Below, in pieces: positions 32,604 through 64,000 of a stretch of DNA of 64,000 nucleotides; positions within the stretch are counted from its first letter, which is position 1; every line of letters begins with the position of its first letter. Source of the DNA: Azolla caroliniana (taxonomy: Eukaryota; Plantae; Polypodiophyta); contig JBHGNT010000003.1 of NCBI GenBank assembly GCA_043228905.1, positions 23,932,001-23,996,000 of the forward strand, in the 5' to 3' direction. A program made the translations under genes and the position numbers. The notes under the pieces were generated by a model. The model worked only from the letters and a program-made list of their open reading frames with translations. It was not told the origin of the DNA and did no database searches.

Positions 32604-34053
32604 GTTGTATTGGGGTGAAAAACAGGTCAGTTGAAGGAAATTAAATCCGGAAGAGGAAATATAGATAGTAGAAGGTCCACAGCAGAAATAGGATACAGTA
32701 GAAATGGTGTTGATGAAGAAGAAAGGGAGGAGGATACAGTTAATGTTACATGCATGAGCTGCGAAGAGAGAAGATTTAGTGTAGGAATCAATCATAACAT
32801 AAACAGGGTTAAGGAAGTGTGTAAAAGAAGAAGAAGAAGAAGAAGACAATGACGATGTGTGTGTTAGTATGATTCAATGGAGATTTGTGTCCAAAGCATT
32901 GAGGATGATCTTAACATCAGAGAAAGAGAAAGAGAAAGAGGAAAAGAAAGAGAAAGAGAGAGACGGATACAGTGTTGCATTCCGATAGGTCTGCATTAAT
33001 TTGTACAACTGAATTGACACAGTGTGTCCTGCATATTTCCTGGTTGTAAAATTTAGATTAAGCCTTTGTGTTGCTGTCACTTTTCCCTTGATTTGCAAAC
33101 ACTTGCAAAGAAGAAGAAGAGAAGAGAAGTTTAGAGAAGAGAAGAGAAAGCCTTCCTTTTATTGTGTCTTTTTGATGAAGCACTTTTTGTTTCTTTTGAT
33201 CGGGTTTCGGTTAAAAACCCACGTGCCATCAGCGGAAGGTTCAAGTTTCAAGTCAGGAAGATAGAGATTTATCTACTGAAATTCCCAAAATAATATGGTG
33301 TCACCGAAAAGGAACGAGAACGAGACTCATTGGACACATGGGAATATTGTGTGAACCTTCTTTTTATGCGAACATTGTGTGGGAAGCTGGAGCGACTCCT
33401 TGACAAGGGAATCGGAACCTATTCTTTTTGGAATAGCTGATCTTTGCTTTGCATTAATATTATTTTTGCATTAAATTATGGACAGGTTTTGCGAATTGGA
33501 AACTACTCAACATTCAGTTTACATATAGACAAGGTTAGAAAAGTTGTACTCCTCTTTTTATTTATTTATCATAAGTTGCCGAGCATAATCTTATTCCCAA
33601 ATTTGGTGGAATATGTTGGAGAGACAAAGGCATTACGCTTGTAGTATAATTTTGAGAATAGGTGATGTCAAAGATGCCTAAAGAATTGCCATACACCAAA
33701 TGAATCCTTTGGTGAGAGTGTGATAAATGGATATTTTCGGATCCAAGTGTTTGGGTAGTAGTGGGTGTTATGCCCTTTCATGGGTGGGCTTTAATTTCTC
33801 ATGGAGAGAGCCTTCTTGGGTTCTCTGAGCTCTCGTTGAGATGGCCTAGGGTTATCTCTCATGAGGGAACAAGGGATAGTTAGGTGCCAATTTAATTAAT
33901 CATAATAGTTTCTCAAAGTACTTCTTGAGCTATGTGAGAGTGCAACCAATGATGTATACTGTCTCCCACATTCTTTGGTCTATGCATCGAATAGCTTGAA
34001 GGAATAGCAAACAAGGCTGCAAAAAAGGAAGGATTAGATGGCCCAAAACTAAT

Positions 34054-39600: not shown

Positions 39601-42359
39601 GATCTCCTTGACAAGAAAGTGATAAGAAGTCAAGATGTCATATTCATGGAAGACAAGACAATCGAGGACTGGGAGCAACAAAGACCAGAGTCGTCTCCCA
39701 AATCGATCGCTGCTATGGAGTCAATACTAGTCGATCCGACTCCCACACAACAATCGGCTAATGAAATTGAATTTGAGTCGGTCGACACCCAACAACAATC
39801 TGATACACGCGAATTGGAGTCGGAAGATGAGTTGCTGGAAGAAAACGGCCATCAGCCAATTATTGAAGGGAGAAGATATCCACGAAGACAAAGGAAGGTC
39901 TCTTCTAGATATCCAGCCAGTCAATATGTTCTCTTGACTGATGAAGGGGAACCAGAATGCTATGAAGAGGCCATGACTGATGTACACAAGGAGAAATGGT
40001 ATAATGCCATGCAAGAAGAAATGGATTCCTTGCATGAGAACCTAACTTATGAGCTGATGGAGTTGCCTGATGGTAAGAAGGCACTTAGAAACAAATGGGT
40101 CTACAAATTAAAGATTGGTGAAGATGGTAGTACACCCAGGTATAAGGCCCGTATCGTCGTAAAGGGTTTCCAACAGAAAAAGGGTGTTGACTTTGATGAG
40201 ATTTTTGCCCCAGTTGTAAAAATGACCTCTATTCGGACTGTCTTGAGTATGGCCGCTAGTATGAATCTTGAAATCGAACAACTAGATGTTAAAACAACCT
40301 TCTTGCATGGTGAGCTAGAAGAGGAAATCTATATGCAACAACCGGAGGGCTTTGAGGTAAAAGGAAAAGAAAATCTCGTGTGTAGGTTGAAGAAAAGCTT
40401 GTATGGTTTAAAGCAAGCTCCACGACAATGGTATAAGAAATTTGAGTCCTTCATGTTGGAACATGGATTCCACAAAACACAAGCTGATCATTGTGTATTT
40501 GTGAAAAGGTATAATGAGGGTGACTTTCTTATTCTGTTGTTGTATGTGGATGATATGTTGGTTGTTGGACAGGATGTCAAAAAGATTGCAAGCTTGAAGA
40601 AATCATTGAGCAAATCATTTGCCATGAAAGACTTAGGACCGGCAAAACAGATTTTGGGAATGCATATAGTCCGGGACAGGACTGAAAACTTGCTATGGCT
40701 GTCACAAGAGAAATATGTGACAAAAGTTTTGCAAAGGTTTAATATGTGCGATGCAAAATCAGTCGGATCTCCATTGCCAATGGACTGTAAGTTAAATTCA
40801 GGACAATGTCCGAAATCTGAGAAAGATAAGGCAGAGATGAGAAGAGTGCCGTATGCCTCTGCGGTTGGTAGCCTTATGTATGCTATGGTTTGCACAAGGC
40901 CGGACATTGCATTTGCTGTCGGGACAGTTAGTCGATACATGGGAAATCCTGGAAGGGAGCATTGGGAAGCTGTGAAATGGATTCTTAGATACCTCAAAGG
41001 AACTTCGAATGTATGTCTTAGATATGGCTCCGGGAAACCTGTGCTAGAAGGTTTTACAGATTCTGACATGTCGGGTGATGTAGATTCTAGCCGATCCACA
41101 TCAGGGTATGTGATGACGTATTCAGGGGGAGCTGTGTCATGGCAATCAAGATTGCAAAAGGTTGTGGCTTTGTCTACCACCGAGGCTGAGTATATGGCTG
41201 CAGTGGAAGCCGGAAAAGAACTGATTTGGATGAGAGAGTTCTTGAATGAACTAGGATTGAAGCAAGACAAGTACTTACTTCATTGTGACAATCAAAGTGC
41301 TATCCATCTGGCTAAAAATGCTACCTACCACTCTCTACAAAGCACATTCAAAGAAGGTACCATTGGTTAAGAGAAAGAGTGGAAGAAAATGAGTTTGTTC
41401 TATCTAAGATCCCCACTGAAGAAAATGGTTCAGACATGCTCACAAAAATTTTGCCTATGGAAAAACTTGTTGCATGCCGGAATAAGATTGGCTTGGTTGG
41501 TTCTCCCCCTACAGGAGTGAAGGGGGAGTTTGTTGTGTAAAGGCGTCCCTCCTTGCGGGGGAGTCGGCCGAAAAGTCGACTTGAGTGTCGACTGGTCGAA
41601 ATCGGCCAAAAAGCCGAAAGGAGTCGAATTACCGAAATCGGCCGAAAAACCGAATTACCGAATTTGGTCGAAATTCGGAAAGTAAAAGAATAGTCGGTTG
41701 CGAAGAACCGAATCGGGGGTTAGCTGATCGAATTCGATGAGAGAGTCAAATTCGTATTCAGTCGAATAGACACACATATACATATACATATGTCTTCTAC
41801 ATTCAAAGAAGAAAATGACTTAGTATATATATGCTAACAGGCCTGGTAGTGCGCCTGTATGCGGGATAACTTACTAAGAGTGAAATAGTGAGAAAAGGGG
41901 AAAACCTACATAGCGTATGTGAGGGTGTGAGATATATATATATATATATATATATATCTGAGAGAAAAACGAGTTGTGTGTGTGTGGTAAATCTGAGAAC
42001 GACTGGTTTTCTGCACAGTAGTGGCTGTGTAAGAGTATACGTACTCAGAAGCTAAGTAAGAAGAAAAGAAGTGTGAAGCAAAAGAGGAAAAGACAGAGAA
42101 GCTTCGGAAGCTTCGGAAGGAATAGTCACCTGCGTGCTAGAGTTTGAAGAGCTTGACTGAAATCGTGGTTTCAGTACATGCTCATACCAAATCAGGTTTC
42201 ATTGTTTTGTGATTGTATTCTGTCATTTCTCATAGTGAAATTTATGTTCCGTGGTTTTTCCCTAAATCAGGGTTTTCCACGTAAATTGTGCGTTCTTTCT
42301 TATTTCCTGTTTGCGTCTAAGTTCAATTTCTGATTTCGAATCGGAGTGAAACTCTTTCA
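36685..42359 (+). mobile_element. Ty1/Copia LTR retrotransposon 2 (Tork/Tnt1-like), full length
   Basis: LTRs 36685-37505 and 41531-42359 (TG..CA; about 5 substitutions plus a (TA)n length difference). TSD ACTAG. PBS TGGTATCAGAGC at 37509-37520. PPT GAAGGGGGAG before 41531. Empty site near 9806. Confidence 0.96.
37532..41480 (+). pseudogene. Copia 2 gag-pol, disrupted (frameshift near 37673, stop at 37963-37965, frameshift near 41335)
   Basis: CFYCGKPGHFQKNC, VVDSGAS, HTDVC/TDNGGEY/ELNGLAER, LYVDD, FTDSDMSG and STTEAEY lie in ORF 38134-41370. Confidence 0.9.
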
Positions 42360-43147
42360 ACTAGTCCTCTCCCTTTTTGGCCAATGCCCAAAAATCTATA
42401 TCCTTCATATTTTGGTCCCCCCAATTTTTGTAGCTTTCAAAGCCTCTTAGCTAATGTCATTAGCGAATAATGGACGGGCATGCCTCTTCAAAGCCTCGTG
42501 GTCATATGTGCCCAAAGAACAAAAATTGACAAATTAAACTCATGAGGAAAGTTCTGTGCCAAACAAATAAGAAGAAGTCGAAAACAGTATGTCCAAACTT
42601 TACAACCAAAGTCAACTCACTCTTCATCAATAAAGATTCTTAAAGGAATCAAACCCTTCCGATATTCCTGCTCGAAAATAATGAAATTGGAATCCATCCT
42701 CTTCCTGCGCAAAATCAAAGATCATAATGTTTTTGAATCATGCCCACATCACCATCATCACCATCTTCTTCTTCTTCTTCTCCTACACACTTACTTAACT
42801 CTGTCTATGTGATGATTGATTCCTGCAATAAATCTTGTCTTCTTCTTCTTCTTCTTCTTATCTTCCGCTTTTATCCTAATCCTACTGTGCCTCTTCTCTT
42901 ATCTTCTTTTTTCTCTGCCTAGATTACTTTCCTTAAGCTAACTTGTTCGTCACCAATCCGTTCAAAGGCGATGGTGATTTATCATCATCCACGATACAGC
43001 ATGACCATATCTATATTCCTTTCCATTGCAGTCATGGCTGCTCCTCTGCATCTCGCTCTCTTACCATCTTATAGTGCCACAGTTCCTGAGAAATTGTTAA
43101 TACCAGATTGCAACACCACCATAGCCACAACACAGAATACTAGCCGT

Positions 43148-46100
43148 TGTTGGAGAAGAACGATGGAGGCGGACGAGCTGCTGTTTTTCCTTACCTGCAG
43201 AGAAAATGTCGAACAGCACACAGACAGAGAAAAATACACAAACAACTTTTTGGGGGCACACGAAACCCTCATTTCTATTAGTTTTTATACCTATGCGTAA
43301 ATAGTAAGAAATAACATATTTGGCCTTTTTTTACTATCAATCTCCCGCTAAAAGGCCAAACTAGGGATCAACAAAGCTGATGAGAAGATTGAACAAGACC
43401 TACACATCCTACTTGATGAGTATGTTACACAATGTGTAACCTCATGACCTAAGTAATCCCCATCAAGTGGCAGCAATGCTCTAGTGCTTCATGCGGTAGA
43501 GCTTTGGTCAATGCATCTGCAGCATTTTCTTGAGAAACAACTTTCTCAAGACTGATGTAGCCAGCAGCTATGCATTCTCGAATGAAGTGATATCTCACTC
43601 CAATGTGCTTGGTCTTTACATGGTATACTGGGTTTTTAGCTAGTGCAATGGCACTCTGACTATCACAAAACAGTATGGGTACAAGCTTAGATATGCCCAT
43701 GTCACAAGCTAATCTGGACAGCCATACGACTTCCTTACAAGCTTCGCTAGCTGCGACATACTCTGCTTCTATAGTGGACAGAGCAGTACATTTTTGGAGA
43801 TGAGATCTCCAAGATATCGCACCTCCCATAAACTGAAAAATGTATCATGAAGTGGATTTTCTGCTGTCAGAACAACCAACATAATCAGAGTCTATATATC
43901 CAATGATGGATACATTTCCACCACCTAAACATAGACACCTATTCTTAGTGCCACACAGATATCTTAAAATCAGTTTAACTGCCTCCCAATGTTTATTACC
44001 AGGATTTGACATAAATTTGCTCACAGCTCCCACTGCGAAAGCAATGTCTGGCCTGGTCGCTATCATAGCGTACATAAGACTCTCGACTGCGGATTGATAA
44101 GGAACCTTGGACATAGATTTCTTGTCTTCATCAGATGTGGGGCAATCACATGTGCTCAATTTTACATATGTAGGCAAAGGAGTGCTCAACGGCTTTGCAT
44201 TCTCCATATTAAACCTCTTTAGCACTTTCGATATGTACTCAGCTTGAGACAAGTAAATGCATCGCTTACTCCTATCACGAGTGATACACATACCAAGAAT
44301 ATGTTTTGTATCTCCCAAATCCTTCATGTCAAAATTCTGGCCCAAGTTTTTCTTTAACGAGGATAACTCATCCTTGTTTTTACCAACAATAAGCATGTCA
44401 TCAACATATAATATCAATGTGATAAAATTCCCATCTGAACAATTTTTTGTATAAAGACATGCATCTTCATTGCTTCTAGTATATCCTTGAGTCTTCATAA
44501 AAGCATCAAATTTCTGATACCATAACCTCGGGGACTGCTTAAGCCCATACAAACTCTTCTTGAGTTTACATACCAAATGTTCTTTTCCCGACACTTCATG
44601 ACCTTCTGGTTGTTCCATATAAATATCCTCATCAAGGTCCCCATGCAAGAAGGCAGTCTTCACATCCATTTGGACAAGTTCCAAAATCTGATTTGCAGCC
44701 AATGAAAGCAACATACGTAATGTAGTCATCTTAACTACAGGAGAAAAGGTTTCATCAAAATCAATTCCATATTCTTGTTTGAAACCTTTGGCAACCAAGC
44801 GTGCTTTATACTTTGGAGAAGCACTATCAGATGTATACTTATACTTGTATACCCATTTGCATGGCAATGCTTTCCTGTCCTTTGGCAAAGGTACTAAATC
44901 CCAAGTACCATTTTTATAAATGATGTCCAATTCATTTTGCATGGCTTGTTTCCATTTAGTATGGTCATGAACAGATATGGCTTCATTGTAACATGAAGGC
45001 TCACCGGCATCTGTTAGCATTACATAATCAACAAACTTATTAGGTGCCTTGGAGACACGCGTAGATCTCCTCAATGATTCCTGAACCTGAATACCATCAG
45101 GTTGTGCATGAGAAACATCATTCTGAGCATCATCATTATGAGCATAAACATCATCTTGCACGTCATTGTGCTGAGCATCATCATTTTCGGCATCTTCATC
45201 CTGACCAATAATAGGTTTTTGTGACTGCCCACATGTAGAAGCATCTACATCAGTAAGATTTTTCTGTTTTACATCAACAAAAGGCGTACTATCTTTAAAT
45301 GCAACCTTTCTCACTTCTACCTCCTTTAGGGTCTGTTTATGCATTTTGTTCTCATAAAAAACATCACTACTTCTGACCACAGTACGTGTGTCAGGATCCC
45401 ATAAGCGATATCCAAACTGCCCATCAATTCCGTAACCAAGAAATATACATTTTCTGCATTTATAGTCTAATTTCTTTCTTAAGGTTTTTGGAATGTGTAC
45501 ATATGCTTCGCATCCAAAAACTCTAAGATGAGCATAATGAGGTGTCTTGCCTGTCCACAACTCTTGTGCCACGTTTAGACCTATGGTTGTGTTTGGTGAT
45601 AGGTTAATCACATGGACTGCTGTTAAAACAACTTCTGCCCAAAAACCTTGCGAGAGGTTTGCATGGTGTAGCATAGAGACAACTCTGTCCTGGATGGTTC
45701 TGTTCATCCTCTCAGCCACACCATTTTGGACAGGGGTGTAAGGAGCTGTAAACTCTCTCCGAATGCCTCTAGACTTGCAAAAGTCATCAAATTCATGAGA
45801 GGTATACTCACCTCCATTGTCTGAACGTAAGGCCTTGAGCTTTATGTCCTTTTCCAGCTCAACCGAACTAAGCCATTTTCTGAAAGTATACATCATCCTT
45901 TCCCTTAATTGGATAAGCCCAAACTTTCCTAGTGGCATCATCAATGAAAGTAACAAAATATAGTACACCGCCCAAAGATCTTGTGGGCATAGGTCTACAA
46001 ACATCCGTGTGGACAAGATCCAATGGTTTCGTGGATGAGTTAACACTGGTCTTATGTGCACTTCTAGTTTGCTTACCATGTTGACAATGTTCACATAAAG

Positions 46101-48269
46101 CAAAATCAGAGAATGACAACTTAGGTAAGTGGCCATAACGAGATAGGATTTCCATGCCATTTCTTGACATGTGGCCTAAACGACCATGCCAAATGCTCGT
46201 CATTGGTTGTTCTGTGACAGCCAACAAGTGTTCCTTTTGATGAACAAAGAAAGGGTAGAGGGAACCAACTTTGTTCCCTTTTGCGACAATCATATTTCCT
46301 TTCGTTATACGAAAGGATTGAGAAGCAAACATCACCTTATATCCGTTGTCATCAAGCTGACCAACAGAAATCAAACTACGAGTTATTTGAGGAACGTGGC
46401 GTACATCTTTAATGGTCAGATGAGAACCATCACTAAAATGCATTGAGATATTTCCAATGCCAATCACATCACATTGATGTGAGTCTCCAAGTTGAACTTT
46501 CCCAAGCGACTTGGCTTCATAACATGTGAACCACTCTCTATGTGGAGTCACATGAAACGATGCACCGGAGTCCAACTACCACGTATGTGATGGGGAAAAG
46601 ACCGTGTTCACCCCAGCATGTGTGCTAACATCATCTAGGACCAAGATGTTCGTCTCATCACATGTTGCATTTACTTCCTCCATTTCCAACGAGGAAGAGG
46701 GACCACTAGATTGTCTACCATGCCCTCTAGCATTATCTTTCTCCTTATTTTTAAGGGCATAACAGTCTTTCTTAAGGTGTCCCTTTTTATGACAGTAATA
46801 ACACTCCATATTTTTCTTCCTAGATTTGCTTCTACCTCTATCATTTCCACTACTATTTCTTGTTTGGCTCCTACCACGGTGTTGGTTCTTGTGAGGACCA
46901 ACATCAGAAACATTACATGCATCTCCATTGTGTGATGCAATCACAGATTTTCTACGAATTTCTTCACCCAAAAGAGCTCCACATATGTCATTATAGACTA
47001 ATTTCCCATTTGGTGCACTTGCACTAATAGCGGTGCAAAAAGTGTTCCATGAGCTAGGCAAAGTGCATAACAAAAATACACATTTAAGCTCATCATCAAA
47101 AATCATTTTTTGAGCCAGTAATTGTGACCATAATGCATCAAAATCATTCAAATGAGAGGTGACATTGTCATTGTCCTTCATTCGAAGATTATAAAGTTTT
47201 CTCATTAGATAAACTTTGTTTGATGTGGTCTCTTTTTCGTATGTACTGGATAGTTTAGTCCATAGCTTTTCAGCTGAGTCACAGTCCAAGACTGTGAAAT
47301 ACACGTTGTCAGCTAGGTGCAGTCTTATGGTAGAGATTGCCAAGAGATCGAGCTCTTCCCAATCGTCCTTGGTCATGCCCTCGGGTCTCTTGGCTTCACC
47401 ACTTATAGCTCTTAATTGCCTTCTTTGAATCAAGACATCTCTCATCTGATTCTTCCACAGGGCAAAGTTGGATCCGTCAAATTTACGGATCTCAAGGTGG
47501 TCTTTTCCGCTCATAGATTGATTTCTATGGGAATTAAAGGAACCACTGTGTGAAGTGCTTGAAACCTCGGACATTTCAGAGGCAGCCATTTAGATGGTAG
47601 GTAAACTTAGTCAATTCCAAATCTAAGCAACTAACGATAGTTGAGACACTACTCACTACCTAGTCTCAAGCACAACTATCACTGTGTTCTAGGGTAGGTA
47701 TGTGTGTTCGACTGAGGACAACACCTCACTCTTATATCAGCCAAGACAGATGGAATGTAGCTGAGATGTAACTTCCAACGTCACTATCTCACATCAAGTG
47801 AGCAAGCATCGGAAAAACCAAATACAAGTTTTTATGTGTAAATCCTCTCTTCTGTATATTAGAAACAGTGAGTCCTCTCTGTTTCTACCTTTCACCAAAG
47901 GTCTATTTTTCTTTTCCCAAAAACAATTGGCACGAAGAATGTTCATACAAAAACGTGTACTAGATATTACCTCTATCGAGGTCCTGGAAAAATAACATGC
48001 GCAGAGGGGGAAAAACAGAGAAATCAGATGCTTTCTGCCACATGCAGTCTTCACGAATCCCTGCGCTCTAATACCATTGTTGGAGAAGACGGATGGAGGC
48101 GGACGAGCTGCTATTTTTCCTTACCTGCAGAGAAAATGTCGAATAGCACACAGACAGAGAAAAATACACAAACAACTTTTTGGGGGCACACGAAACCCTC
48201 ATTTCTATTAGTTTTTATACCTATGCGTAAATAGTAAGAAATAACATATTTGGCCTTTTCTTACTATCA
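43148..48269 (-). mobile_element. Ty1/Copia LTR retrotransposon 3, inserted in RLK E exon 1
   Basis: 192-bp LTRs 43148-43339 and 48078-48269 (about 5 mismatches). TSD GCCGT. PBS TGGTATTAGAGC at 48076-48065. PPT near 43340-43355. Confidence 0.95.
43449..47589 (-). pseudogene. Copia 3 gag-pol, disrupted (stop at 46576-46578, frameshifts near 45885 and 43845)
   Basis: CYYCHKKGHLKKDC, DSGASFH, HTDVC, SDNGGEY, VQNGVAER, LYVDD, STIEAEY, ADALTK. Confidence 0.9.
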
Positions 48270-48406: not shown

Positions 48407-48731
48407 TGATGACAATCAATAGAGCAGAAAATCAAGAGACAATCTGCTCTTGATTGTAATGCACAGACAGTGAAGGATGAAGGAGTGCACAAGAGGAATA
48501 GGGGGTGAATGACAAAGGGATTCAATTGATACAACAGGGTGGAGATTACAAGAGGAGAGAGAGGTAAATCTCTGCAACAAAGAAAAGGGGGGAAAAAACC
48601 ACACAGAGAGAACACAGACACTCGCTCTCTCACACTCACTAACTCACTCTCTCTCTCTCCCCACACAACTAAGTGGAAGACCAGTTTTGGCCTTTTCACA
48701 CTTAGTATGTATTGGGGATACATGTATAACA
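48407..48731. mobile_element. Solo LTR, 325 bp, inside RLK E
   Basis: TGATGAC...TATAACA termini. TSD CCAGT at 48402-48406 and 48732-48736. The RLK sequence is continuous across it. Confidence 0.88.
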
Positions 48732-49245
48732 CCAGTCTCGCCAAACACAACCCTAAACCTCATCTACCCTGACAAACAGATCATACTTCAAGACCACACC
48801 TCAATTAGCACCACCATCAATGGAAGCTCTGCCAATAATTCTACTAATGCTAATTCTTCTACCACTGTAGTTTGGTCTTCTCCTCTTGGGATATATAGTG
48901 TTCTAATGAATAGCATTGGGAATCTTGTGATGCAAGATAGCAGTAACTCAACCCTTTGGTAGAGTTGAAAGGATTATAACTTCGAAGGACAAAGATAACG
49001 ACAAAGATGAAGAGGTAAGAGATTACTCAGTAGATTTTGGAATTAACATATAAACTGGTACATGTATTCTTTTATGAACTCACACTCAAATATGTGGTAT
49101 TGTAGTGATTTAAATATATCTAAAATGTGACTGTTGTGGTTGTAACAGTCACTCCTATTTTTAGATAATGCTATCTAACTAATTAGTTTTTATTTAAAAT
49201 TAGAGTTATTTTCAACACCCCCCCTTTAACTCTAAATCCTATATG

Positions 49246-52200
49246 TTATTGAGAGAGACTTAGCCCAATATTTTTGCAACAATTCCAATGTTTAATACTT
49301 GGAACTGGCTTTGTTAAGAAATCGGCCCACATGTCTTGAGTAGGGGTATAGTTGATGTCGAGGTTATGTTCTTCGACCAATTTTGTTATAAAGCCTAATT
49401 CAGTACACTGTTCCAAAAGAATAGGGTGGAGCTGATCTGAAGGAGATGTGATAGCGGGACTCTTACTTTCAGCCACGTTGGCAGTAGTATCGTCATCTGT
49501 TGCAGCGTCATCAGCACCAGACACATCATGTGCCGTCCTTAATCCACAAGATTCTACAATAACATGGCAGCTATTTAGGATAGCTAATTAGCTACTTTAC
49601 TAAACTATGGTAGAAGCTAGGATAGCTAATTAGCTAGTACGATAGCTAATTAGCTACTTTACTCAACTATGGTAGTAGCTAGGATAGCTAATTAGCTACT
49701 TTCTCAACTATGTAGTAGCTAGGATAGCTAATTAATTAGTTACTTTACTCAACTATGGTAGTAGCTAGGATAGCTAATTAGCTACTTTACTCAACTATGG
49801 TAGTAGCTAGGATAGCTAATTAGCTACTTTACTAACTATGGTAGTAGCTAGGATAGCTAATTAGCTAGTAGGATAGCTAATTAGCTACAATGAAAGCTAA
49901 TTAGCGACTTTCTCAACTATGTAGTAGCTAGGATAGCTTATTAGCTACTAGGATAGCTAATTAGCTGCCAGTAGCTAATTAGCTACTAGGATAGCTTATT
50001 AGCTACTTTCTCAACTATGTAGTAGCTAGGATAGCTTATTAGCTACTAGGATAGCTTATTAGCTACTTTACACAACTATGGCAGTAGCTAATTAGCTACT
50101 ATGATAGCTAATTAGTTGCTAGTAGCTAATTAGCTAGTAGGATAGCTAATTAGCTTTTTTACACAACTATGGTACTAACTAATTAGCTAGTACCATAGCT
50201 AATTAGCTACTAGGATAGCTAATTAGATGCTAGTAGCTAATTAGCTACTTTACACAACTATGGCAGTAGCTAATTAGTTACTAGGATAGCTAATTAGTTG
50301 CCAGTAGCTAATTAGCTAGTAGGATAGCTAATTAGCTTTTTTACACAACTATGGTACTAGCTAATTAGCTGCCAGTAGCTAATTAGTAGGATAGCTAATT
50401 AGAAAAGACTAAGCTTATTAGCTACAATATGGTATACCTGTTAGTTTTCTCCACTCATTTGGTAGAGTTGTACTGCAATCTCCCAAACAGAATGCAGCAA
50501 TTCGACAGGCATGTTGAAAACAAAGCAGATGGTATGTGTGGTTGCATGGTTGTAGGTGAACGAACAAAGACGCAGTTTTGTCCTCCACACCTAACCCGCA
50601 AGCGATGCAACGTGCTTGAACTGTCAATAAATCATTTTCTGGTTCTACTTCATTTGGTAAGGGAGCAAGAATGTTCAGGTCCAAATCCTGTCTGGTCCTT
50701 ACCATTCCCTCCACAAAATGTAGCTGCTTCTTAAGGCAGCTAACTACCTGTTCTTGATGAATGTATTGTTCCTTCAACGCAACAGAGAAATTTACCGATT
50801 AATTATTCTTGTTGTTGAAAGATACACCAACTTTGCTCAGGAATCGTTAACTTACTTGAAGCTTATCCAAATTGTAATTTGCAACAGTATTTACACCTAG
50901 AAGGTCCAAGTTCATTGAAAGAACCTGGATCTCTATTTGCAGTTCTATTTTACGCTGGGGATCCAGTGGGCCCTCTAATTCAAGCTCCTATTGCGCAACC
51001 TATTCCAGATAATGCTTGATTAGCACACTTTACCCGTTATTTATAACACAATCACATACCAGCAAAACAATAGTTACCTGAATCTTATTTCTAATTGTTG
51101 TAACAACGGAAGTAACTTTGCTCTCCATTGCAGAAGCCATTGTGGCTTTCTCTAAATCAGTCTTAAAAAATGCCAATGTCTCACAGGCTTCATGGACATT
51201 TTTTAGCATATAGCTAACCAATGTCTCACCTGTATCATCGACATTGGCTTTCCTTGGGTGTCGGTGTGGTGTATGCCCCCGGTCTTGCTGGGAGTCAACA
51301 GTTGCATCAACAGTTGCCATGCTCCAAAATCTGTCTATTTTTTGTGCCAAGGTTCCCATCTTTCGGCATCTTTTTACCGATGCCTCACCATAGACTGCCC
51401 AAGCTACCCTATACATTTCAGGGTCTCTGGATTCCTTCGTTGTTTTGCAGTACTCATATGCAAATGCTCTAGCAAATGAAACTGACAACTCATTGTTAAC
51501 TGGGATCTCCTGATGAACTTTCTGGTGCAGTCTCATGCAGTCATCGTACAAGTCGGCTCGTACATGCTTCAGCTTGACCTTGCCTTTGACTCTAGGCACT
51601 ATATATACTGTCATCCAGTCTACATCACTGATCAATTTATCACTTAGGACAGCAGGGTCAACACCCTCGAGTGACAGACCATAGGTGTTGTGGAAGTCCT
51701 CCTTTGTCTCGCAAAATTTTGCAAAGTTTAGCACTCTCGTATACGGAGGAACAAGCCATCTGAAATATCATTTCAGAAATCAGAAATAGTGCAAAATCAG
51801 AATATGTGAGAATCAGAAACCCCAATCAACAACAACAAAAATGGTGCAAAATCTTTAACTTAGCAAATCAGAAACCCTAATCATAATTTGTATTCAGAAA
51901 TTTGAAGAAACCCTAATCAAAATCTGTAATCAGAAGTTTGAAATCAGAAACCCTAATCAAAATCTGTAATCAGAAAATTGTAACCAGAAACCTTATTCAT
52001 AAATTTATAATCTAAAACCCTAATCAGAAATTTCAATCAAAAACCCTAATCAGAAATTTCAATCAAAAACCCTAATCAGAAATTTCAATCACAAACCCTA
52101 ATCAGAAATCCTAAACAGAAATTTATAAACAAAAACCCTATTCAGAAATTCTAATCAGAAATTCTAATCTGTAATCAAAATTTGTAACCAGAAACCCTAT

Positions 52201-52436
52201 TTAGAAATTCTAATCAGAAATTTATAATAAAAAACCCTAATCAGAAATTTCAATCAGAAACCCTAATCAGAAATTTCAATCACAAACCCTAATCAGAAAT
52301 TCTAATCAGAAATTTATAAACAAAAACCCTAATCAGAAATTTCAATCAGAAACCCCAATCATCCCAAAAGACAGGATTAAACACACAAAAAAGTAATATA
52401 AACACACCTGTTGCTACTCCCCGATTTGCGACACAT
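49246..52436 (-). CDS. Predicted spliced gene or pseudogene of unknown function with a RING-H2-like finger; exons 52436-52408, 51759-51078, 50987(or 50999)-50856, 50771-50438, 49553-49246
   Basis: GT..AG junctions with matching phases (2,0,0,1) link three separate ORFs into about 494 aa. C-x2-C-x17-C-x-H-x2-H-x2-C-x10-C-x3-C at 50609-50475. Confidence 0.6.
49570..50425. repeat. Array of the palindrome TAGCTAATTAGCTA (more than 20 copies) with TTTACTCAACTATGGTAG linkers
   Basis: Directly visible; the same motif recurs at about 52830-52885. Confidence 0.95.
51770..52360. repeat. Telobox-containing tandem repeat (AAACCCTAATCAGAAATTTCAATC-like, ~23-bp period)
   Basis: Repeated AAACCCTAATCAG alternating with AAATTT(C/A)(A/T)AATC. 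Confidence 0.92.
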
Positions 52437-54039
52437 CCTTGTATGGGACTCCAAGGACTTCACCCTATTCGATTTTGGGGAAATATGAATCGGCACCAAA
52501 GTTCAGACAGTAGTCAAAAAGAAAAAACAAATGTTTGGGGTTTCTGTAACTGAAACATACCTAGACGATGATCGAGCGGGTTTTGTGTTGTAGCTCTCAA
52601 TCTGCAATGTCGATTTTCTGCTGTTGCGGGAGCTACGTCTGCGTTCGTGCTTTGAGTACTCCATCTGCGTTCAAAATCAGACTTAGGCTAAACAGGAAAT
52701 TGATGACATTGAAGTCGACCTTAGATGATGGTGCTATTCCCCAAGTTCCACTACGTCTGAAACAGAAGTTCAAATATTTGAATTTTTTCATAAATTAGTT
52801 TTTCAAATATTTGATTTTCCCACAAAAAAGACTAGCTAAACAAATAGCTAATTAGCTATGGCCATTTTAGTAGCTAATTAGCTATAATAGTGTTTCCACT
52901 CGCATGCTTCTACCCTATAAGGTACATCCTTCATTTCGGAAATTTCTCGTTCATTTTTAGGAGAATTATCATTTGAAAGTTTACTTGGAGAGGTAAGAGG
53001 CGTACTATAGAGCATATCAAATCTTTGGAGAATAGAATTAATATAATTTGATTGTGATAAAGAGATAGTATGATTTGTTCTATTTTAAGTTATTTTGATG
53101 CCTAGAAAATGTGTCATAGGGCCTAAATCGGTAATAGGAAAGACATATGCAAGTTCCTTCTTTGCAATAGTTAGATAAGATTTAGAATTAGAGATCAAGG
53201 GCAAATCATCAACATAGACACCTGTGATAACAAAATTGGATTTGGCTTTTCTAACGTAGATATTTGGCTCATTGTTTAGACGATGATATCCAACTTTTAT
53301 AAGAAAAGAGTGTAGTTTGTGACATCATATGCATGGAGATTGCTTAAGGCCATAAATAGATTTACGAAGTCGACAAACATGTGTCGAATGACTTGGATCT
53401 TCAAAAAATTGTGGTTTTTGTAAATAAAGTTCTTCATCTAAACCTCCATGAAGAAAAGACGTTTGTACATCCAAGTGATGCAACTCTAGATCATGTTGAG
53501 CGGCAAGAGGAACGAGCATTCAAAAACCACATATTTTTAGCATTGGACTAAATGTATCTTGAAAATCAATGCCTGGTACTTGAGAAAATCCTCGAGCAAC
53601 AACACGAGCCTTGAAGCAAATTGGATTGCCATTTCCATCTCACTTCATGCGTAATACCCATTTAGAACCAATTATATGACAATCTTTTGGATGCTTAACA
53701 AGGGTCCACGTACCATTTTTAATTGAAGCCTTCATTTCTTCCTCCATAGCCTTTCTCCATTTGATAGAATCCGATCCGGAAAGTGCATCTTTGGCTGATA
53801 GATTTGTGTCATCACTAAGGATTGGAAGATCTTCTTCTTGTATATAAGCTTCATGGTCCAAGTCCACAAAATGTGCTTCCATTTTATCAAGTTGTTCATA
53901 AATACTATTTAGAGAACTATACTTTGGAGGTGTATATCATGAATATATAAGCATCATGGCTTCACTTGGGCTTGAACCCAAGACCTTGTAATACATAATC
54001 AAGAACCCAAGACCTTGTAATACATGGTTTCTTGAATCA

Positions 54040-54369: not shown

Positions 54370-57300
54370 CAAGTACACAGAGATAGATCAAGAGCAATGA
54401 AAACAGGAATATGACTACTATAGACAACAGCTTACAACCGACAACCCGATAATGGACCCGACACGGGGTCCAACTCACGCACACCGATGACAGCCACACG
54501 ACTCGAAGAAACCAAGGGGAAAGGGGAAGGAGAGAGAGTCTGTTGGAAGCACACGGGCTATCCACGAAGCAGAGGCAGCGAACTCTCGACACCCGCAGAG
54601 AACAACGATTTCAAGAGGAGAGAGAGAGAGGTCCTCGGTTCTCCAGCAGCACTCCGTCCTCGCCAACGCGCCCCCTTTTCTCTTCCTTCTCTCCTCTTCT
54701 TAAATAGTTCCCCCCCAAAAAAGGGTGCCCCTTTCCCTAGTTAAATCGCTTTATTCCCTGTTCCTTCTGATAGAGATATGCACAATCCCCCCCCTAATAA
54801 ATGTGCACTACTTAGTATTTACATCAGTTGATCCATTTATGAATCAACATCAAAATATCAATTCATGCGTCCATTCGTGTAAGAGCCAGTTCATGCGCCT
54901 TTTTGCCCGAATCCGCCTATGGCCGGTTTTCTTCGCGACATCCGCCCCCACCAAACCGCGCATCCACCGGCATGCACTAGAGACGGGTAGATACCGAAGA
55001 AAACCGGCTTCAGTCGGCGCTCTCCGATTCTTTGTCGGGCCCGAACTGATCGTCGTCGTCGCTCTCGTTCACGCCCTCTGGGTGCGGCTCGTCCTCGAAC
55101 CGCTTCTTGAACGCTTTGATCCGCTTCCCGGCCACCAGTACTGCTAGTCATGTCCCGTCAAGTTCTGCGAGGTGGTACGTGCCGTTGTCGTTCGCGCTCG
55201 TCATCGTGTAGGGCCCGAACCATCTCCTAGCGAACTTTCGCACTGCCTTGTGCTGATTGTCGAGGTTGTTGTCGTATACCAAGACCCAGTCGCCTTCCTC
55301 GATCTTCTTTGGTCACAACCAGTGCGTCCGGTTGAACCGGGTCTTGTTCCGCTCCCTTGCCGCTCGCAGCTTTTCCTTCGCCTGTTTCACGTCCTCCGGC
55401 CTCCGCTCGAGTTGTCGAATCCGCGCTGCCAACAACTCCTCCCGGCTCATTTCGTTCTTCCAATCTACCGCCGCCCATGAAGAAACCGTCTGTTCCACCG
55501 GCATGATTGGCTTCTGTCCGTACATCAGTTCTACCGGCATAAACCCTGTCACCGAACTGTGCGTAGTTCGGATCGCCCATAGTGCGTAAGGGAGGAGCCG
55601 CGGCCAATTCTCGACCTGCCCTCCGCATGCACGCACCAATGCCTTTACGATCGGCCCGTGCCCACGTTCTACCTTTCCGTTCGCCTCCGGATTGTACGCC
55701 GTAGTGAGGGAGAGTTTGACGCCTAGCCGGTCGAACAACTGCTCAGCTTCCCGCGCATCCAGCTCTCCCCGGTCCGCCACGATCCTCCCGACGCACCCAT
55801 ACCGACACACTACCTCTTCGATCAGGAATCGGCATACTACCGCGGTTGTCTTGTTCTGTAGTGCACGGCCTTCCACCTGGTTCGTTAAGTCTTCCCGTGC
55901 AAGCACCAGGTATCGCATCTGTCCTACTCCCATCGGCATCGTCACCAAGTCCACCATCCACTTGAAATGGACCGTAGGCGGGTAGGTCGGGTGTAGCTCG
56001 TCCCAGTGTCGGACTGTGGAGTACATCTGACAGCTTTCGCAAATCGTTACGAATCGATGCACGTCCTGGTACAGCCCCGGCCACCAGTACTTCTCCTTCA
56101 GCTTCTCAAACGTGGCCCACGTTCCACGGTGTCTGGCCCAGGGACTCTCGTGAAATGCCGCCAGTAGTTCCTCCTGTTCTTCTTTCTTTGTCACTACTCG
56201 GAGTGGGATGTCGTTTCTCTTCTTTGGGTGGCTCCATATGCCTTCTTCCGTACCCGCCTCGCCTCTTCTCTCGTCCATGCTGCGTCCGGCGTCATCGTCC
56301 GTAGGAACCTCCCGATTTGGAGCCACTCCCCGTCGTACCTGCTTTCGTCAAATTCGTTAAGCGCCGGAGTGTCCCTTTCCCTCGTCGCTACGTTAGCCGA
56401 CCCAAGAAGTCCTCGCCGACTTCTTCGTCATCCGAAACCATGTCGTCTTCATCGTTGAACCTTGCTCTCGAAAGCATGTCGGCCATGGCGTTATCCTTTC
56501 CGGAGATGTGTCGTATCTCCAGGTTCAGGGACTTAATGTACGCTATCCACCGGAGCATTGCTAGGTCCGGCATCACGCATCCGGAAACCATGCCGAGTAT
56601 CGGCAGGCAGTCTGTCTCGATGATTACCTCCGTCCCGATTAGATAGTCCTTGTCGGCCTTGACTCTCGAAACGACACCCCAAAGCTCGCGCTTAACTTGG
56701 GCGTATCCTCGTTGCCGCTCGCTCAATACCTTCGCCCCGAACCAGATCGGTAATCTACGCCGTCCTTGTCCTCCTGACTGATTACCCACCCGATCCTGGT
56801 TGGGCTGGTGTCCACCATCACGCAAATGGGGACATCCTTGCCGTAAACCGCTTTACGGAGATCCGATGCAACCGTAAGCGCCCCCTTTAGTCTCCGTACC
56901 GGCTCCGTGTGCTCTGTTCTCCACTCAAAGTTATGCCCCTTTTTCAATAGTCCGTAGAGGGGTTCCGCGACATGTGTGTAGTGCGGGATCCAGATGTGGT
57001 AGAACGCGCATGCACCCAAGAATTTGCGAACCTCCATGACCGACCCGTAATCGTCCCTCATCGCTGAGATGGCCTCCACCTTTGCCGGAGACGGTTTCCT
57101 ACCGTAGGGACCGCATAGGTGTCTGACCACCAAGATCTCCGACTGCCCGAACGCCGATTTTTCTCCAGAGAAGGTGAGTCGTGCGTTTTCGAGCTTCTGC
57201 AGCACCTTCTCGCAGTCGTTAATGTGGTTCACGACGAACCTCCGACATCCGTTTGGCCCGACAGTCTCGTCCGAGTCATCCACCGAACACCCCTTTATCA

Positions 57301-60107
57301 GGATGTCGTCCAAAAATGGCATGGTGATGCCCGGGATGAAGTCCCTGAGCACCTTGTTCATTGCGTTCACCATATGCGCCACCGAATTTGTTCCGCCTTG
57401 TGGTAGGGTGCACATTCGTACCAGGTCCAGAGGAGTTCGCATCGTCGTTATATCCCTGCTCTCCATGGCTAGCTGGAACTGGTCGTACCCCGAGTATAAG
57501 TCACCGATCGAATAGATCGACCTTCCAGCGAAGGCCTCCGCGAACTCGTCTATGGTCGGGCCGATTCCTGCATTACGGACGGTCACCCTATTGACCGGTT
57601 GTAGGTCCTGAATGAAGCGCAGCGTACCGTTCCTCTTCGGCACCGTAAACCACCGATTCGAATACGGGGCACTCGACGGTTCGAGGATGCCCATCTCCAC
57701 CTTTTGCTTCAGAAGCTCCATTAACTTCGGGATGTGAGCTCTCGGCACCGGAATCAGTTTGAGATTCCACGGTACATGCGGTACCGTTGTCGAGGTATTC
57801 CTCGCGGATGTGTGGAATGAGGCGAGACCTCAGGGGTCCTGTACCGAAGAGTAAGAGAAAAAAAGAAGAGACCCACTACGTGCGAGCGTAGATTCGCAGG
57901 GACACGGCCCTTCGACGCAAAGACGCGAATGGGACAGCGACACAGAAGACACGAAAGTATGTATGTATTGACAAGACAAACAACTAGAACACGAAGACAA
58001 CAAACACGAAGTCGGTTACAACCGAACAGGCTGGCGAACAGATGCCGATACCTGCTCGTAAACGCACAGAGGGGAAAGAGTAGGTTGGAGGTGCTGCCGG
58101 AAGCACTCGGGCATTCCTTAGAGCAGCGCGAGCCTCCCGAAACCTGCACAGAAGGAAGCTATGGCGTTTGCAACCGAAAAGAGAGAGAGAGAGAGAAGCC
58201 TTCGCACGCAAACCGACAGCACTTCGTCCTCGACTCTCCGCGATCCCTCTACCCTCCTCGTCTCCCTCCTTTTATAGGCAAGGAAGGAGCCGTTTCCCCT
58301 TCACTCCCTACCTACCGAATCTACCTAGGATCTCCTATGTACAACTTAAGGCGCACGTGCATGAAGAGTCGGTTTCTACGCTCCGGTGCACCGATTCCAC
58401 TCGTGGACGGTTTTCTTCACGACACCGTGAAGATCACCATCAGTTCGACGATCGTCACGCACCCGATCTCCTCCAGCGAGAATGGGAAGGCTTTCCCATG
58501 CCTTTCGAGCATTTTCCGAAACCTGTCCTCCTCCGTCGGTAGTAGAAAGCCACCCCCACCGACCTTGAGCTCCTGTAGCATTATGTCGGTGAACCGGTGC
58601 CCTATGCCAACCGGATTCCGTAAACTGGGGTCCAACGCGACCGCTTTTATCCGCTCCTCGCTGCCTTCCGGCAAGGGTGCTGCGATTGGCCCACAGTCTT
58701 GTACTTTGTATCCACGCGGACCGTCCGATCCGACCCGATCCTTTCCCCGAAGTCCGTGATGACTTCGTACATTCCCATCGAACCTACCGGAACGGTCCGG
58801 TCTTCTCTAAGGTCTTCACCGATCACCTTTCGCAACTCGCCCAAGGTGTTGTCAAAAGAGACCGCCTCCACGGTGCCGCTGATGTCTTAATCGGGGAAGA
58901 GGACTCTGCATCCCCTGAGCCGCTCGCTTCCTTTCCCGGCCGTTGACGCCGGCCATAGTACAACCTCCGTTGTCAGAGAACCAAAATTTCCTACCTATGG
59001 TACAAGTCTTCTTCCGTACTGTACATTTGTGGGGTTTTTCCCGGGTGTCCGGACTATCGCGGCCCCACGCCTTGATAGCCCTCTTTAAAAATCCCCTCGG
59101 GTTTCGCCGCCGAAGGCCTCGCGGTTACGCTCATGGTTTGGTCGCACCGTCAGGAACTGGATCGAGTGACGCCCGTCCTGGCTCTTGACTCTTGCATAGG
59201 CCGAACCGTTGTCCAGCACCTTGGTCTCCATCCGTGCCGCCGTGATGTATGGCTCTCCTAGTATAACCGGATGCGAGGACGTCTCCTGCACGGAGAAGTG
59301 TTGGTCGATCTCGACATCGTTGATTTTCACCCGTACGTTCGGACAGGCCCCATGTAGTTCTTCTGTGGCGCGCGTTGTTGCCCATATTTTCCAGCCGTGC
59401 TTGGTGTTGATCGGCCATTTACCCCTCTTGTAGAAATCCATGGACATCAGGTTGATTTCGGATCCCTGGTCTACCAACGGCACCACCGGTTCCGGAACGT
59501 TGCCGATCCGTATAGGGGTTTCCGTTGTTTCCCTGGCCCAATGCGGCTTCGTGTAGTGGCTTCCCGCCAACTCGTCTTCTAGGGCCACGTCTTCCAACCC
59601 TAAACCCTGGCCCAATGCGGCTTCGTGTAGTGGCTTCCCGCCAACTCGTCTTCTAGGGTCGCGCCTTCCAAGTGCATGATCCGCACCTCCACCGGTTTCT
59701 CCTGTTCCGGCTCTGTTGAGAGCCTCTTCCACTTCACCAAGTTTACGATGGAGTCGTGGAACTCCCTCCTAGCGATTCCCAGCACCTCCCGCAACGACAG
59801 CTCCACTTTACTGTCGAGGATATGTTCCTCCGGGACCTTTCGCAGGTCTGTGGTCCTTTCGATTTCGGTGCTCAACCGAAACCCTGCTTGCTTCTTTCCG
59901 TCTGGCGCGCCTGGGTTGCCGGCACCGGTCGGTTTCGGTCTGAACCGGGTCTCATACCTCTGTGGGGGACCGACCCCTCCGGCCTTTCCTGCCTGTTTGT
60001 CTTCCACCAGAACCTCGTAGTTCTGGCAAGCGGTTTCTACGAAGCCCGTTTTCTCTTTGACCGGATCGTCCCAACCGGTGACCTCCTGGACCCGCTGTTC
60101 CGCGCGG
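54269..60107 (-). mobile_element. GC-rich Ty3/Gypsy element G1 (3' LTR 54269-54940; degenerate INT, RNase H, RT, PR and gag end)
   Basis: LTR TGTCGCG...CGCGACA followed by PPT TGGGGGCGGA (- strand). KWMVDL, ADRGEL, EANGKVER integrase; PFLDD RT; VDQGSEIN protease. Many frameshifts. Confidence 0.9.
57788..58424 (-). mobile_element. Solo LTR of a related Gypsy family, inserted in G1 RT
   Basis: TGTCG...CGGTTTTCTTCACGACA termini. 4-bp TSD CCGT. The uninterrupted site GTACCGTGAA is seen in G2 at about 63691. Confidence 0.88.
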
Positions 60108-60896
60108 TGTCGGGGTTGCTACGCCCTTGCGTGTAGAAAGGAGGAGGGACCACGGGGGTCTCGAACCGAAGAGCAAGAGAGAGAGGAGAAAGAGAGAGAG
60201 ACCCGATTACACAGAACCGAAGATCCGATTGCGCAGAACCGACGATTGCACAGGGACACGACCCAACAAACAGAGATCCCAAATAAACGCCGACGCAGAT
60301 GGACGCAACAACGAGAGATATGTACTTATGAATGCAAGAAAATAACAGACTAAAGTATTACAACCCACGGTGGGGCACAAAATATATACTAACGAAAACG
60401 AACAGGGCGGCGAACAGCTGCCGACCCCTGTATGTCGCGACGCACAGAAAGGGAAAACAGGTCGGAGGTGTTGCAGGACGCACTCGGGGCGTTCCACGGA
60501 ACAGCGCAAGCCTCCTCGAAACCTGCACAGGTACGCGATGGAGCGGAAGACAGAGAGAGCAGGAGTGAGAGAGAAGCTCCGAAATCGGTTCGGCAGCACT
60601 TCGTCCTCTCCGCGGGAGATGCCCCACTTCTATTCTTCCTCTTCCTTTTATAGCCCGTCAAGAGGCCGTTTGGCATTAACTGCATACCAACCGAATCTAC
60701 CCACCTAGGATCCTCGTATGTACCTACTTCGTCCTTAGGTACTTCTTGGCGCGCGTGTGTGTGTAGAGCCGTTTCCCACGCCTTGTTCCTCCGATTCCTC
60801 TTGTGGGCGGTTTTCTTCATGACATCCGCCCCCACCTAACCGCGCATCCACCGGCATGCGCCAAATTAAGTTGGCACGGAGAAAACCGGCCCGCCT

Positions 60897-62204
60897 CTAC
60901 TCTTCGCCTGCCGGCCCTTCCTCGGCCTCGGATCGGTCGTCGCTGCTGTCCAGGAGAATCGGGTCGGGTTCGTCGTCGTGCCGCTTCTTGAAAGCTTTGA
61001 TCCTCTTCCCGGCCACGGGTATCGCTATTCTCGTACCGTCGAGCTCCGCCAGATGATACGTCCCGTTGTCGTTGGCGCTCTGTACCGTGTACGGCCCGAA
61101 CCATCTCCGTGCGAACTTCCGCGTTGCTCGGTGCTGGTTGTCGAGGCTGCTGTCGTAGACGAGCACCCAGTCACCTTCGTCGATTTTCTTCGGTCGTAGC
61201 CGGTGCGTTCGGTCGAACCGGGCTTTGTTCTTTGTCCTCGCCACCCGGAGCTTCTCCGTAGCCAGTGCCACGTCCTCCGGTCTCCGCTCGAGCTGTCGTA
61301 TACGTGCGGCCAACAACTCCTCCCGGCTCATCTCGTCCCTCCAGTCGACCGTTGCCCACGAGGAGATCGCCCGTTCAATCGGCATGATCGGCTTCTGGCC
61401 GAACATGAGCTCCGTCGGCATGTACCCGGTTACCGAACTATGCGTGGTCCGGTCTGCCCACAAAGCATAAGGTAGAAGTCGCGGCCAGTTACCGACTTGG
61501 CCTCCGCATGCCCGAACCAGCGCCTTAACGATCGGCCCGTGTCCGCGCTCCACCTTTCCATTCGCCTCCGGGTTGTACGCAGTGGCGAGCGAGAGTTTGA
61601 CTCCCAGCCGATCGAACAGCTCCGCGGCTTCCTCGGCGTCCAACTCCCCTCGGTCAGCCACGATCTTCCCGACGCACCCGTACCGGCATATCACGTCCTC
61701 GATCAGGAACCGACACACGGCCGCGGTCGTCTTGTTCTGAAGGGCTCGGCCTTCCACCTGGTTCGTCAGGTCTTCCCGCGCTAGGACCAGATACCGCATC
61801 TGTCCTACCCCCATCGGCATCATCACCAGATCTACCATCCATTTGAAGTGGATAGTCGGAGGGTACGTAGGGTGAAGCCCGTCCCGGTGTCGGACTATCG
61901 AGTGCATCTGACAACTCTCGCAAGTTGACACGAACCGATGCACGTCCCGGTACAATCCCGGCCACCAGTACTTCCCCTTCAGCTTCTCAAACGTCGCCCA
62001 CGTTCCACGGTGTCCAGCCCAAGGGCTGTCGTGGTAGGCCGCCAGTAGCTCCTCCTGTTCTTCCTTCATCGCCACCACCCGGAGCGGGACGCCGTTCCTC
62101 TTCTTCGGGTGCTTCCACAAATGCCCATCTCGGAGAAGGAATCGATATGCTTTCTTCCGGATCCGGTTGGCCTCGTCCTTCGTCCATGACGCATCGGGCG
62201 TCAT
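60897..62204 (-). CDS. Gypsy G2 integrase (no chromodomain)
   Basis: H-x5-H...C-x2-C, KWMVDL, VADRGEL, YNPEANGKVER, and a WFGPY C-terminal module. Confidence 0.9.
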   Translation of the reverse strand: MTPDASWTKDEANRIRKKAYRFLLRDGHLWKHPKKRNGVPLRVVAMKEEQEELLAAYHDSPWAGHRGTWATFEKLKGKYWWPGLYRDVHRFVSTCESCQMHSIVRHRDGLHPTYPPTIHFKWMVDLVMMPMGVGQMRYLVLAREDLTNQVEGRALQNKTTAAVCRFLIEDVICRYGCVGKIVADRGELDAEEAAELFDRLGVKLSLATAYNPEANGKVERGHGPIVKALVRACGGQVGNWPRLLPYALWADRTTHSSVTGYMPTELMFGQKPIMPIERAISSWATVDWRDEMSREELLAARIRQLERRPEDVALATEKLRVARTKNKARFDRTHRLRPKKIDEGDWVLVYDSSLDNQHRATRKFARRWFGPYTVQSANDNGTYHLAELDGTRIAIPVAGKRIKAFKKRHDDEPDPILLDSSDDRSEAEEGPAGEE

Positions 62205-63982: not shown

Positions 63983-64000
63983 AGTCTTGTACTTGGTGCT

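What the first reader, a model, noticed from the sequence alone, without database searches (positions are those of the whole stretch)
49246..52892. Hidden five-exon RING-H2-like gene inside a Copia, with repeat-filled introns and an in-frame fusion to RNase H
Seen: three unconnected ORFs and two small exons join through GT..AG introns with matching phases. The exons are MCRKSGSSNR (52436-52408), WLVPPY..RNKIQ (51759-51078), ELELEG..DKLQ (to 50856), EQYIH..RING..KLT (50771-50438) and ESCG..CTELG (from 49553). The frame then continues into the Copia RNase H tail FITKLVEEH..WADFLTKP..* at 49246. A candidate 5' UTR intron lies at 52560-52465. This ~3.5-kb block replaces the end of RT and most of RNase H. 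Established: C3H2C3 RING fingers are usually E3 ubiquitin ligases. Inference: a transposon-borne or captured, uncharacterised E3-like gene turned into a chimera that could terminate in the Copia 3' LTR. Caveats: the upstream exon-3 acceptor (50999) includes a TAG, and the exon-4 acceptor looks degraded, so this copy may be dead.
Basis: partly seen in the sequence, partly recalled or inferred. Interest (0 to 1): 0.8.

Follow-up and report, generated by a model that had tools for sequence, protein, structure and literature searches.

The report
Fern transposon's own RING-ligase gene
This is a dead, cut-off copy of an abundant mobile element, likely a cut-and-paste transposon of ferns, whose family carries its own conserved, intron-containing gene for a predicted ubiquitin ligase that would likely help the element control its host's silencing; the in-frame join to the retrotransposon next door is likely a chance scar.

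Summary
The gene model is real; the chimera is not functional. Splice sites and ATG are conserved in related loci (32 fetched, 48-96% identical in exon 2), four relatives lack intron 2 and read straight through, and dN/dS between subfamilies is about 0.2. The block is the left 3.5 kb (52915-49393) of a high-copy element: read depth drops about 25-fold at 52915 and relatives share that end (GGGT..., not CACTA) with different flanks. It landed in a Copia RT; a deletion likely then removed its right part and about 170 Copia codons, joining exon 5 to 48 RNase H codons. Other copies continue differently there. This copy also has a private stop at codon 241. The protein has a ~135-aa domain with no Pfam or PDB match, a coiled coil and a RING-H2; named relatives are Adiantum hypothetical proteins, some ending in an FCP1/NIF-like domain, one fused to a P-element-like transposase piece. 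A palindrome is arrayed in intron 4 and repeated at the end, as in VANDAL/VANC. Transposase, right end, TSD and RNA were not seen. The scan noted a RING-carrying TIR element in an insect before, not this family.

The parts
49393..52915 (-). Left part of a high-copy mobile element, likely a TIR DNA transposon, cut off at 49393
   Evidence: Depth step at both borders and many different flanks at 52915/6; shared terminus in 9 loci
52826..52915 (-). Element terminus (begins GGGT), likely a terminal inverted repeat of 50-90 bp; holds two palindrome copies (52845-52858, 52871-52884)
   Evidence: the second end was not seen, so the inverted repeat is inferred
52465..52560 (-). 5' UTR intron
   Evidence: GT in 6 of 6, AG in 12 of 12 loci covering the sites
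52408..52436 (-). Coding exon 1 (ATG at 52436)
   Evidence: ATG in 11 of 12 loci, donor GT in 10 of 11
51760..52407 (-). Intron 1 with 13-bp-type tandem array (TTTCTGATT / ATTAGGGTT units)
   Evidence: same motifs in intron 1 of 8 of 8 relatives checked
51078..51759 (-). Exon 2: ~135-aa N-terminal domain of unknown family (about 51731-51321) and start of the coiled coil
   Evidence: 136 homologs; pLDDT 92-98 over residues 1-150; acceptor AG in 19 of 20, donor GT in 13 of 13 loci
50856..50999 (-). Exon 3 (coiled coil), with a private stop codon at 50990-50988 (codon 241)
50438..50771 (-). Exon 4 with RING-H2 (C-x2-C-x17-C-x-H-x2-H-x2-C-x10-C-x3-C, about 50609-50475)
   Evidence: Sequence; Pfam zf-RING_11 E 0.085, below cut-off; weak PDB RING hits, best E 0.044; homolog model matches RING-H2 structures
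49554..50437 (-). Intron 4 with array of the palindrome TAGCTAATTAGCTA (24 copies at <=1 mismatch)
   Evidence: same palindrome in 14 of the 32 related loci, arrays of 15-16 in L002 and L005
49393..49553 (-). Exon 5, acidic linker, truncated at 49393
   Evidence: Acceptor and exon start shared by L002; other copies run on with different letters
52916..53900 (-). Host Copia: decayed RT, broken by stop codons, ending at the insertion site (VPY motif)
   Evidence: RVT_2 E 9e-17 and 2e-12; contigs of the empty site go on past 52916
49246..49392 (-). Host Copia: last 48 codons of RNase H, in frame with exon 5
   Evidence: about 170 codons missing by comparison with the neighbouring Copia
49218..49227 (-). 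Copia polypurine tract, followed by the 3' LTR starting TG at 49217 (its end not fixed; no second LTR in the window)

Best explanation
The block is the left 3.5 kb of a high-copy mobile element, likely a cut-and-paste DNA transposon of ferns, and the spliced gene is likely that family's own accessory gene, predicted to encode a ubiquitin ligase that would bind the element's palindromic repeats and act on chromatin or the transposase; in this copy it is dead and cut off. History: the element inserted into the end of a Copia RT (shown: empty sites and many flanks); a later deletion likely removed its right part and about 170 Copia codons and left exon 5 in frame with the RNase H tail by chance (one in three); a C-to-T change left a stop at codon 241 (shown against relatives). 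Function of intact members, by step: conserved spliced ORF under purifying selection (shown); RING-H2 fold (shown by motif, supported by a model of a relative); E3 activity (inferred, about 0.65); DNA binding of the N-terminal domain to the palindrome and a VANC/TnpA-like helper role (inferred by analogy, about 0.3); a C-terminal FCP1/NIF-like domain in full-length members (seen in Adiantum models only, about 0.5 for this subfamily).
For: Depth in the block is about 8-60 times the RT flank in X1, X2, X5 and falls 23-31-fold at 52915/6 in four runs. Loose ends behind 52915/6 in 9-16 contigs agree only 0.42-0.46 (many flanks); loose ends before 52916 agree 0.90-0.97 (empty Copia site). Nine loci share the end, giving 7 different flanks with the window. 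Splice sites conserved across subfamilies; intron 2 absent in L010, L014, L016, L029; intronless relatives hold N-domain, coiled coil and RING in one ORF. dN/dS 0.21 window vs L004 (dN 0.17, dS 0.82, 383 codons), 0.19 L001 vs L004. RING profile in 25 of 36 homologs with 230 or more residues after the N-domain (profile built from these proteins, cluster mates included). Relative P0110 model: best Foldseek rows RNF12, HRD1, RNF165, probability 0.87-0.96. One Adiantum model, P0155, starts with a P-element-like transposase piece (PF21787 E 9e-4; atlas rows agree). VANC21 binds a short motif arrayed in introns and termini of VANDAL21 (PMC5735166, passages).
Against: No transposase, right end or target-site duplication was seen in the window or in the 32 loci, so 'cut-and-paste' and the superfamily are inferred. 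The RING scores below Pfam cut-offs in every protein scanned, Foldseek E-values are 0.37 or worse, and the last ligand pair is spaced x3-x4 rather than x2. All eight ligands survive in only 3 of 6 loci with exon 4. Within the subfamily dN/dS is 0.42-0.82. The transposase link rests on 1 of the 163 proteins compared, its score is below the Pfam cut-off, and it is an automatic gene model. The N-domain is only slightly basic (22 K+R, 19 D+E), which gives no support for DNA binding.
Confidence: 0.8

Rival explanations
1. The Copia captured the gene and makes a functional RING-RNase H chimera ending in its 3' LTR.
For: The frame is open from exon 5 into the RNase H tail, with PPT and LTR behind it. 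The AG of the mutant codon could in principle serve as a second acceptor that skips the stop.
Against: Other copies leave the window sequence at 49393 (8 contigs in X2, 4 in X5, agreement 0.88-0.97); L002 carries exon 5 without RNase H; empty Copia sites exist; the tail lacks the first 170 or so codons; the second AG is absent from 7 of 9 readable relatives; the Copia RT itself has stops.
Confidence: 0.03
2. A Pack-MULE-like non-autonomous element that picked up a host RING gene as neutral cargo.
For: No transposase seen; G-starting end and no fixed target fit a MULE (target mostly random, long TIRs: PMC12973397, passages).
Against: dN/dS about 0.2 between mobile subfamilies that share the terminus; intron gain or loss inside the family; many diverged paralogs in Adiantum, several fused in gene models to Gypsy gag or other neighbours; all 24 named hits among those looked up are Adiantum hypothetical proteins, none a known host gene.
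Confidence: 0.1
3. The gene is the TnpA/ORF2 of a CACTA (EnSpm) element.
For: CACTA-like letters at 52892 and short repeats near the end; spliced gene beside a terminus.
Against: The end is 23 bp further out and starts GGGT in 8 of 9 loci and the window; depth falls at 52915, not 52892; no CACTA-associated Pfam family in the window exons or in the homologs scanned.
Confidence: 0.04

Closest known systems
VANDAL (MULE) elements with VANC anti-silencing proteins (PMC5735166; passages read)
   Same: A DNA transposon with an extra spliced gene and a short motif multiplied as tandem repeats in introns and terminal non-coding DNA.
   Different: No sequence or fold link to VANC was seen (VANC21 chain 9lnj_A at Foldseek E 8.7; not reported by the second look); here the protein has a RING-H2 and the motif is a 14-bp palindrome; binding and demethylation are untested.
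Ghost MULE of the black cherry aphid with a separate RING zinc-finger ORF (PMC6446971; passages read)
   Same: A DNA transposon with a stand-alone RING ORF beside the transposase.
   Different: Animal host, 420-bp ORF; no N-domain or coiled coil described in the passages read; homology not tested.
P-element/THAP9-like transposons (PF21787 TNP-like RNase H N)
   Same: One Adiantum gene model (MCO5606824.1) joins such a transposase piece to a member of this gene family.
   Different: Canonical P ends start CA (recalled); this end starts GGGT. The link is one automatic model.
RING-H2 E3 ligases (RNF12, HRD1, RNF38, RNF165/Arkadia)
   Same: C3H2C3 ligand order; these are the best structural and sequence rows.
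   Different: Below Pfam cut-offs; last Cys pair spaced x3-x4; attached to an unknown N-domain and carried by a mobile element.

Membership tests
TIR (cut-and-paste) DNA transposon | Sharp terminus with many unrelated flanks and empty sites | tested here: met
TIR (cut-and-paste) DNA transposon | Inverted repeat at the other end and target-site duplication | tested here: inconclusive
   Right end deleted here and not in the 32 loci; terminal depth about twice interior in X1 and X2 but not clearly in X12, X13
TIR (cut-and-paste) DNA transposon | DDE transposase in autonomous members | tested here: inconclusive
   None in window or loci; one fused Adiantum model
CACTA/EnSpm | Terminus CACTA/CACTG | tested here: not met
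   End starts GGGT, 23 bp outside the CACTA letters
MULE/Mutator | G-starting long TIR, no fixed target | tested here: inconclusive
   End starts G; 7 flanks end in TA, TT, AT, AA, AT, GC, GA; TIR length unknown
MULE/Mutator | 9-11-bp TSD and MuDR-type transposase | not testable with these tools
   No genome held; no copy with both ends
P-element superfamily | P-type transposase in the element; 7-8-bp TSD; CA ends (recalled) | tested here: inconclusive
   Transposase piece in 1 relative's gene model (below cut-off); end is GGGT, unlike canonical P
Tc1/mariner, PIF/Harbinger, Kolobok | Fixed TA, TWA or TTAA target (recalled) | tested here: not met
   1 of 7 flanks ends TA, 1 of 7 ends TAA, none TTAA; loose-end consensus lines begin with varied T/A-rich letters
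Ty1/Copia cargo or chimera | Gene carried between the LTRs in several copies | tested here: not met
   Empty sites and other continuations
RING-H2 E3 ligase | Eight ligands C3H2C3 | tested here: met
   Window exon 4, L001, L004, L005; 19 homologs match the pattern
RING-H2 E3 ligase | Pfam RING score above cut-off | tested here: not met
   Best zf-RING_2 20.4 bits against 27.3; window 13 against 27 for zf-RING_11
RING-H2 E3 ligase | E2-dependent ubiquitin transfer | not testable with these tools
   Needs an assay
VANC anti-silencing proteins | Homology to VANC and binding to the element's arrayed motif | tested here: inconclusive
   No Pfam or fold match, but the N-domain was never folded alone; binding untested

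The most novel reading that the evidence does not exclude
An undescribed fern lineage of DNA transposons, possibly P-element-like despite its GGG ends, encodes a multi-domain chromatin effector (new-fold DNA-binding domain, coiled coil, RING-H2 ligase, FCP1-like phosphatase) that docks on its own palindrome arrays and uses ubiquitin to lift host silencing: a VANC-like system invented independently with an enzyme attached.
Probability: 0.22. Interest if true: 0.78.

Novelty: new variant of a known kind. Interest (0 to 1): 0.45.

Why it matters
Transposon accessory genes that counter silencing are known mainly from Arabidopsis VANDALs. A conserved fern family with an unclassified, confidently folded domain, a RING-H2 and a built-in motif array gives a testable candidate for a ubiquitin-based version. 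It also explains a set of Adiantum 'hypothetical proteins' as likely transposon genes. The specific chimera in this window does not matter biologically.

Full report
Setting. The window is plant DNA full of retroelements around a cluster of receptor kinases. All 24 named homologs among those looked up are Adiantum proteins (6 of 10, 9 of 26, 5 of 10, 4 of 10), so the source is likely a fern; this is inferred. No genome is held.

Observation. The five coding exons, four introns and the 5' UTR intron are at the stated places with matching phases, and the frame runs into the RNase H tail. With the upstream exon-3 acceptor there is a stop at codon 241.

The gene model is right. A scan of metagenome contigs with exon 2 gave 32 loci, 48-96% identical. 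Among loci covering each site, the conserved letters were: UTR donor 6 of 6, UTR acceptor 12 of 12, ATG 11 of 12, donor 1 10 of 11, acceptor 2 19 of 20, donor 2 13 of 13, acceptor 3 (51000) 9 of 10, donor 3 8 of 8, acceptor 4 8 of 8, donor 4 6 of 6, acceptor 5 1 of 1. These are not all independent: L003-L005 are nearly identical and L018, L019, L024, L026 share one insertion site. L010, L014, L016 and L029 lack intron 2 and read straight through at the upstream acceptor. More distant relatives hold the N-domain, coiled coil and RING in one uninterrupted ORF. At the window's TAG, 9 of 9 readable loci have a sense codon, so this copy is a pseudogene. dN/dS is 0.21 between the window and L004 and 0.19 between L001 and L004, but 0.42-0.82 within the window's subfamily: selection acted on the active lineages, and single copies decay.

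The block is a separate mobile element. In three DNA runs summed contig depth over the block is about 8-60 times that of the RT flank; single contigs reach depth 8132 in X2 against 33-68 for ordinary ones (the tool warns that this is no copy number). In four runs depth falls 23-31-fold at 52915/52916; loose ends beyond that point disagree with each other (0.42-0.46), while contigs entering from the Copia side agree (0.90-0.97), that is, empty sites. Nine loci share the end, 8 starting GGGT, with 7 different flanks counting the window. The CACTA letters at 52892 are internal. No fixed TA, TWA or TTAA target is seen.

The RNase H fusion is a scar. At 49393 other copies go on with different letters (8 contigs in X2, 4 in X5), and L002 has exon 5 with no RNase H. 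About 170 codons separate the VPY motif from the tail in the neighbouring Copia (172); they are missing here. One deletion from exon 5 into the RNase H tail explains both losses (inferred); being in frame has a one-in-three chance.

The protein. Exon 2 has no Pfam family but 136 homologs at E<=0.001, most matching residues about 12-146. AlphaFold gives this part pLDDT 92-98; no known fold was matched, though it was not folded alone. A model of relative P0110 shows the domain, a long helical hairpin and a zinc finger whose best Foldseek rows are RING-H2 ligases, probability up to 0.96 but E 0.37 or worse. All eight ligands are present in the window and in 3 of 6 loci with exon 4; Pfam scores stay below cut-off. 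Eight of 163 proteins continue into an FCP1/NIF-like domain (above the Pfam cut-off in P0058, P0117, P0155) with a DLNG-type first motif; whether this subfamily has it is unknown, since exon 5 is cut. P0155 begins with a P-element-like transposase piece, the only pointer to a transposase.

The repeats. A perfect 14-bp palindrome occurs 24 times in intron 4 and twice at the terminus, nowhere else in the window, and in 14 of the 32 loci. Intron 1 has its own motifs, also kept in 8 of 8 relatives checked. In Arabidopsis, VANC21 binds a short motif arrayed in introns and termini of VANDAL21 and removes silencing (PMC5735166, passages). The layout here is the same; homology is not shown. The array could equally be transposase binding sites.

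Mechanism. Shown: mobile, abundant, spliced-type gene under selection, RING-H2 motif, dead and truncated here. Inferred: cut-and-paste transposition by a transposase in the lost right part; E3 activity; binding of the N-domain to the palindrome and a helper or anti-silencing role. I put the identity and history at 0.8 and the anti-silencing role at about 0.3.

Known or new. Extra genes in TIR elements are known, including a RING ORF in an aphid Ghost MULE (PMC6446971, passages); a survey of 1007 plant genomes does not mention ferns or RING in its main text (PMC12973397, term search). Seven literature searches listed nothing on this family; Repbase was not searchable. Earlier notes of this scan describe a RING-carrying TIR element in an insect and, in this genome, Sola-like elements with a methylase gene and palindrome arrays; both are unchecked leads. 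Verdict: a new variant of a known kind, interest 0.45.

Noticed in passing
window 1187-4102 (-), 10413-12487 (+), 20167-23083 (-), 29803-32873 (-), fragments at 42923-43300 (+) and 48513-48962 (+): Cluster of at least four paralogous receptor-like kinases, 86-94% alike, with a lectin/PAN-type ectodomain by appearance (label recalled, not scanned); some are broken.
   Followed up: no
window about 36685-42239 (+): Young Copia with 99-100% identical LTR segments and an open 1134-aa pol frame.
   Followed up: partly
window 43449-47589 (-): Second Copia with gag and pol split by stops and frameshifts; used as a length reference.
   Followed up: partly
window 6376-8379 (+); 14195-17455 (-); 55148-64000: LINE-like RT frame; Copia with an internal deletion that removes RT; two GC-rich Gypsy-like copies (labels from reading the translations).
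   Followed up: no
L010, L014, L016, L029; P0110, P0111, P0142-P0151: Intron presence/absence inside the gene family: intron 2 is missing in four loci, and distant relatives lack the introns between N-domain and RING.
   Followed up: partly
L001:671-2606: A PPR-like gene lies just upstream of a 5'-truncated copy of the element (label from reading the translation).
   Followed up: no
L018:3394-3514, L019, L024: An LTR piece 87% like the window's Copia LTR lies about 1 kb from another insertion of the same transposon family; probably chance in repeat-rich DNA.
   Followed up: no
P0155 (MCO5606824.1) residues 1-148: P-element/THAP9-like transposase piece in Adiantum nelumboides; P-like elements in ferns deserve a look of their own (one paper search, listed nothing relevant).
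   Followed up: partly
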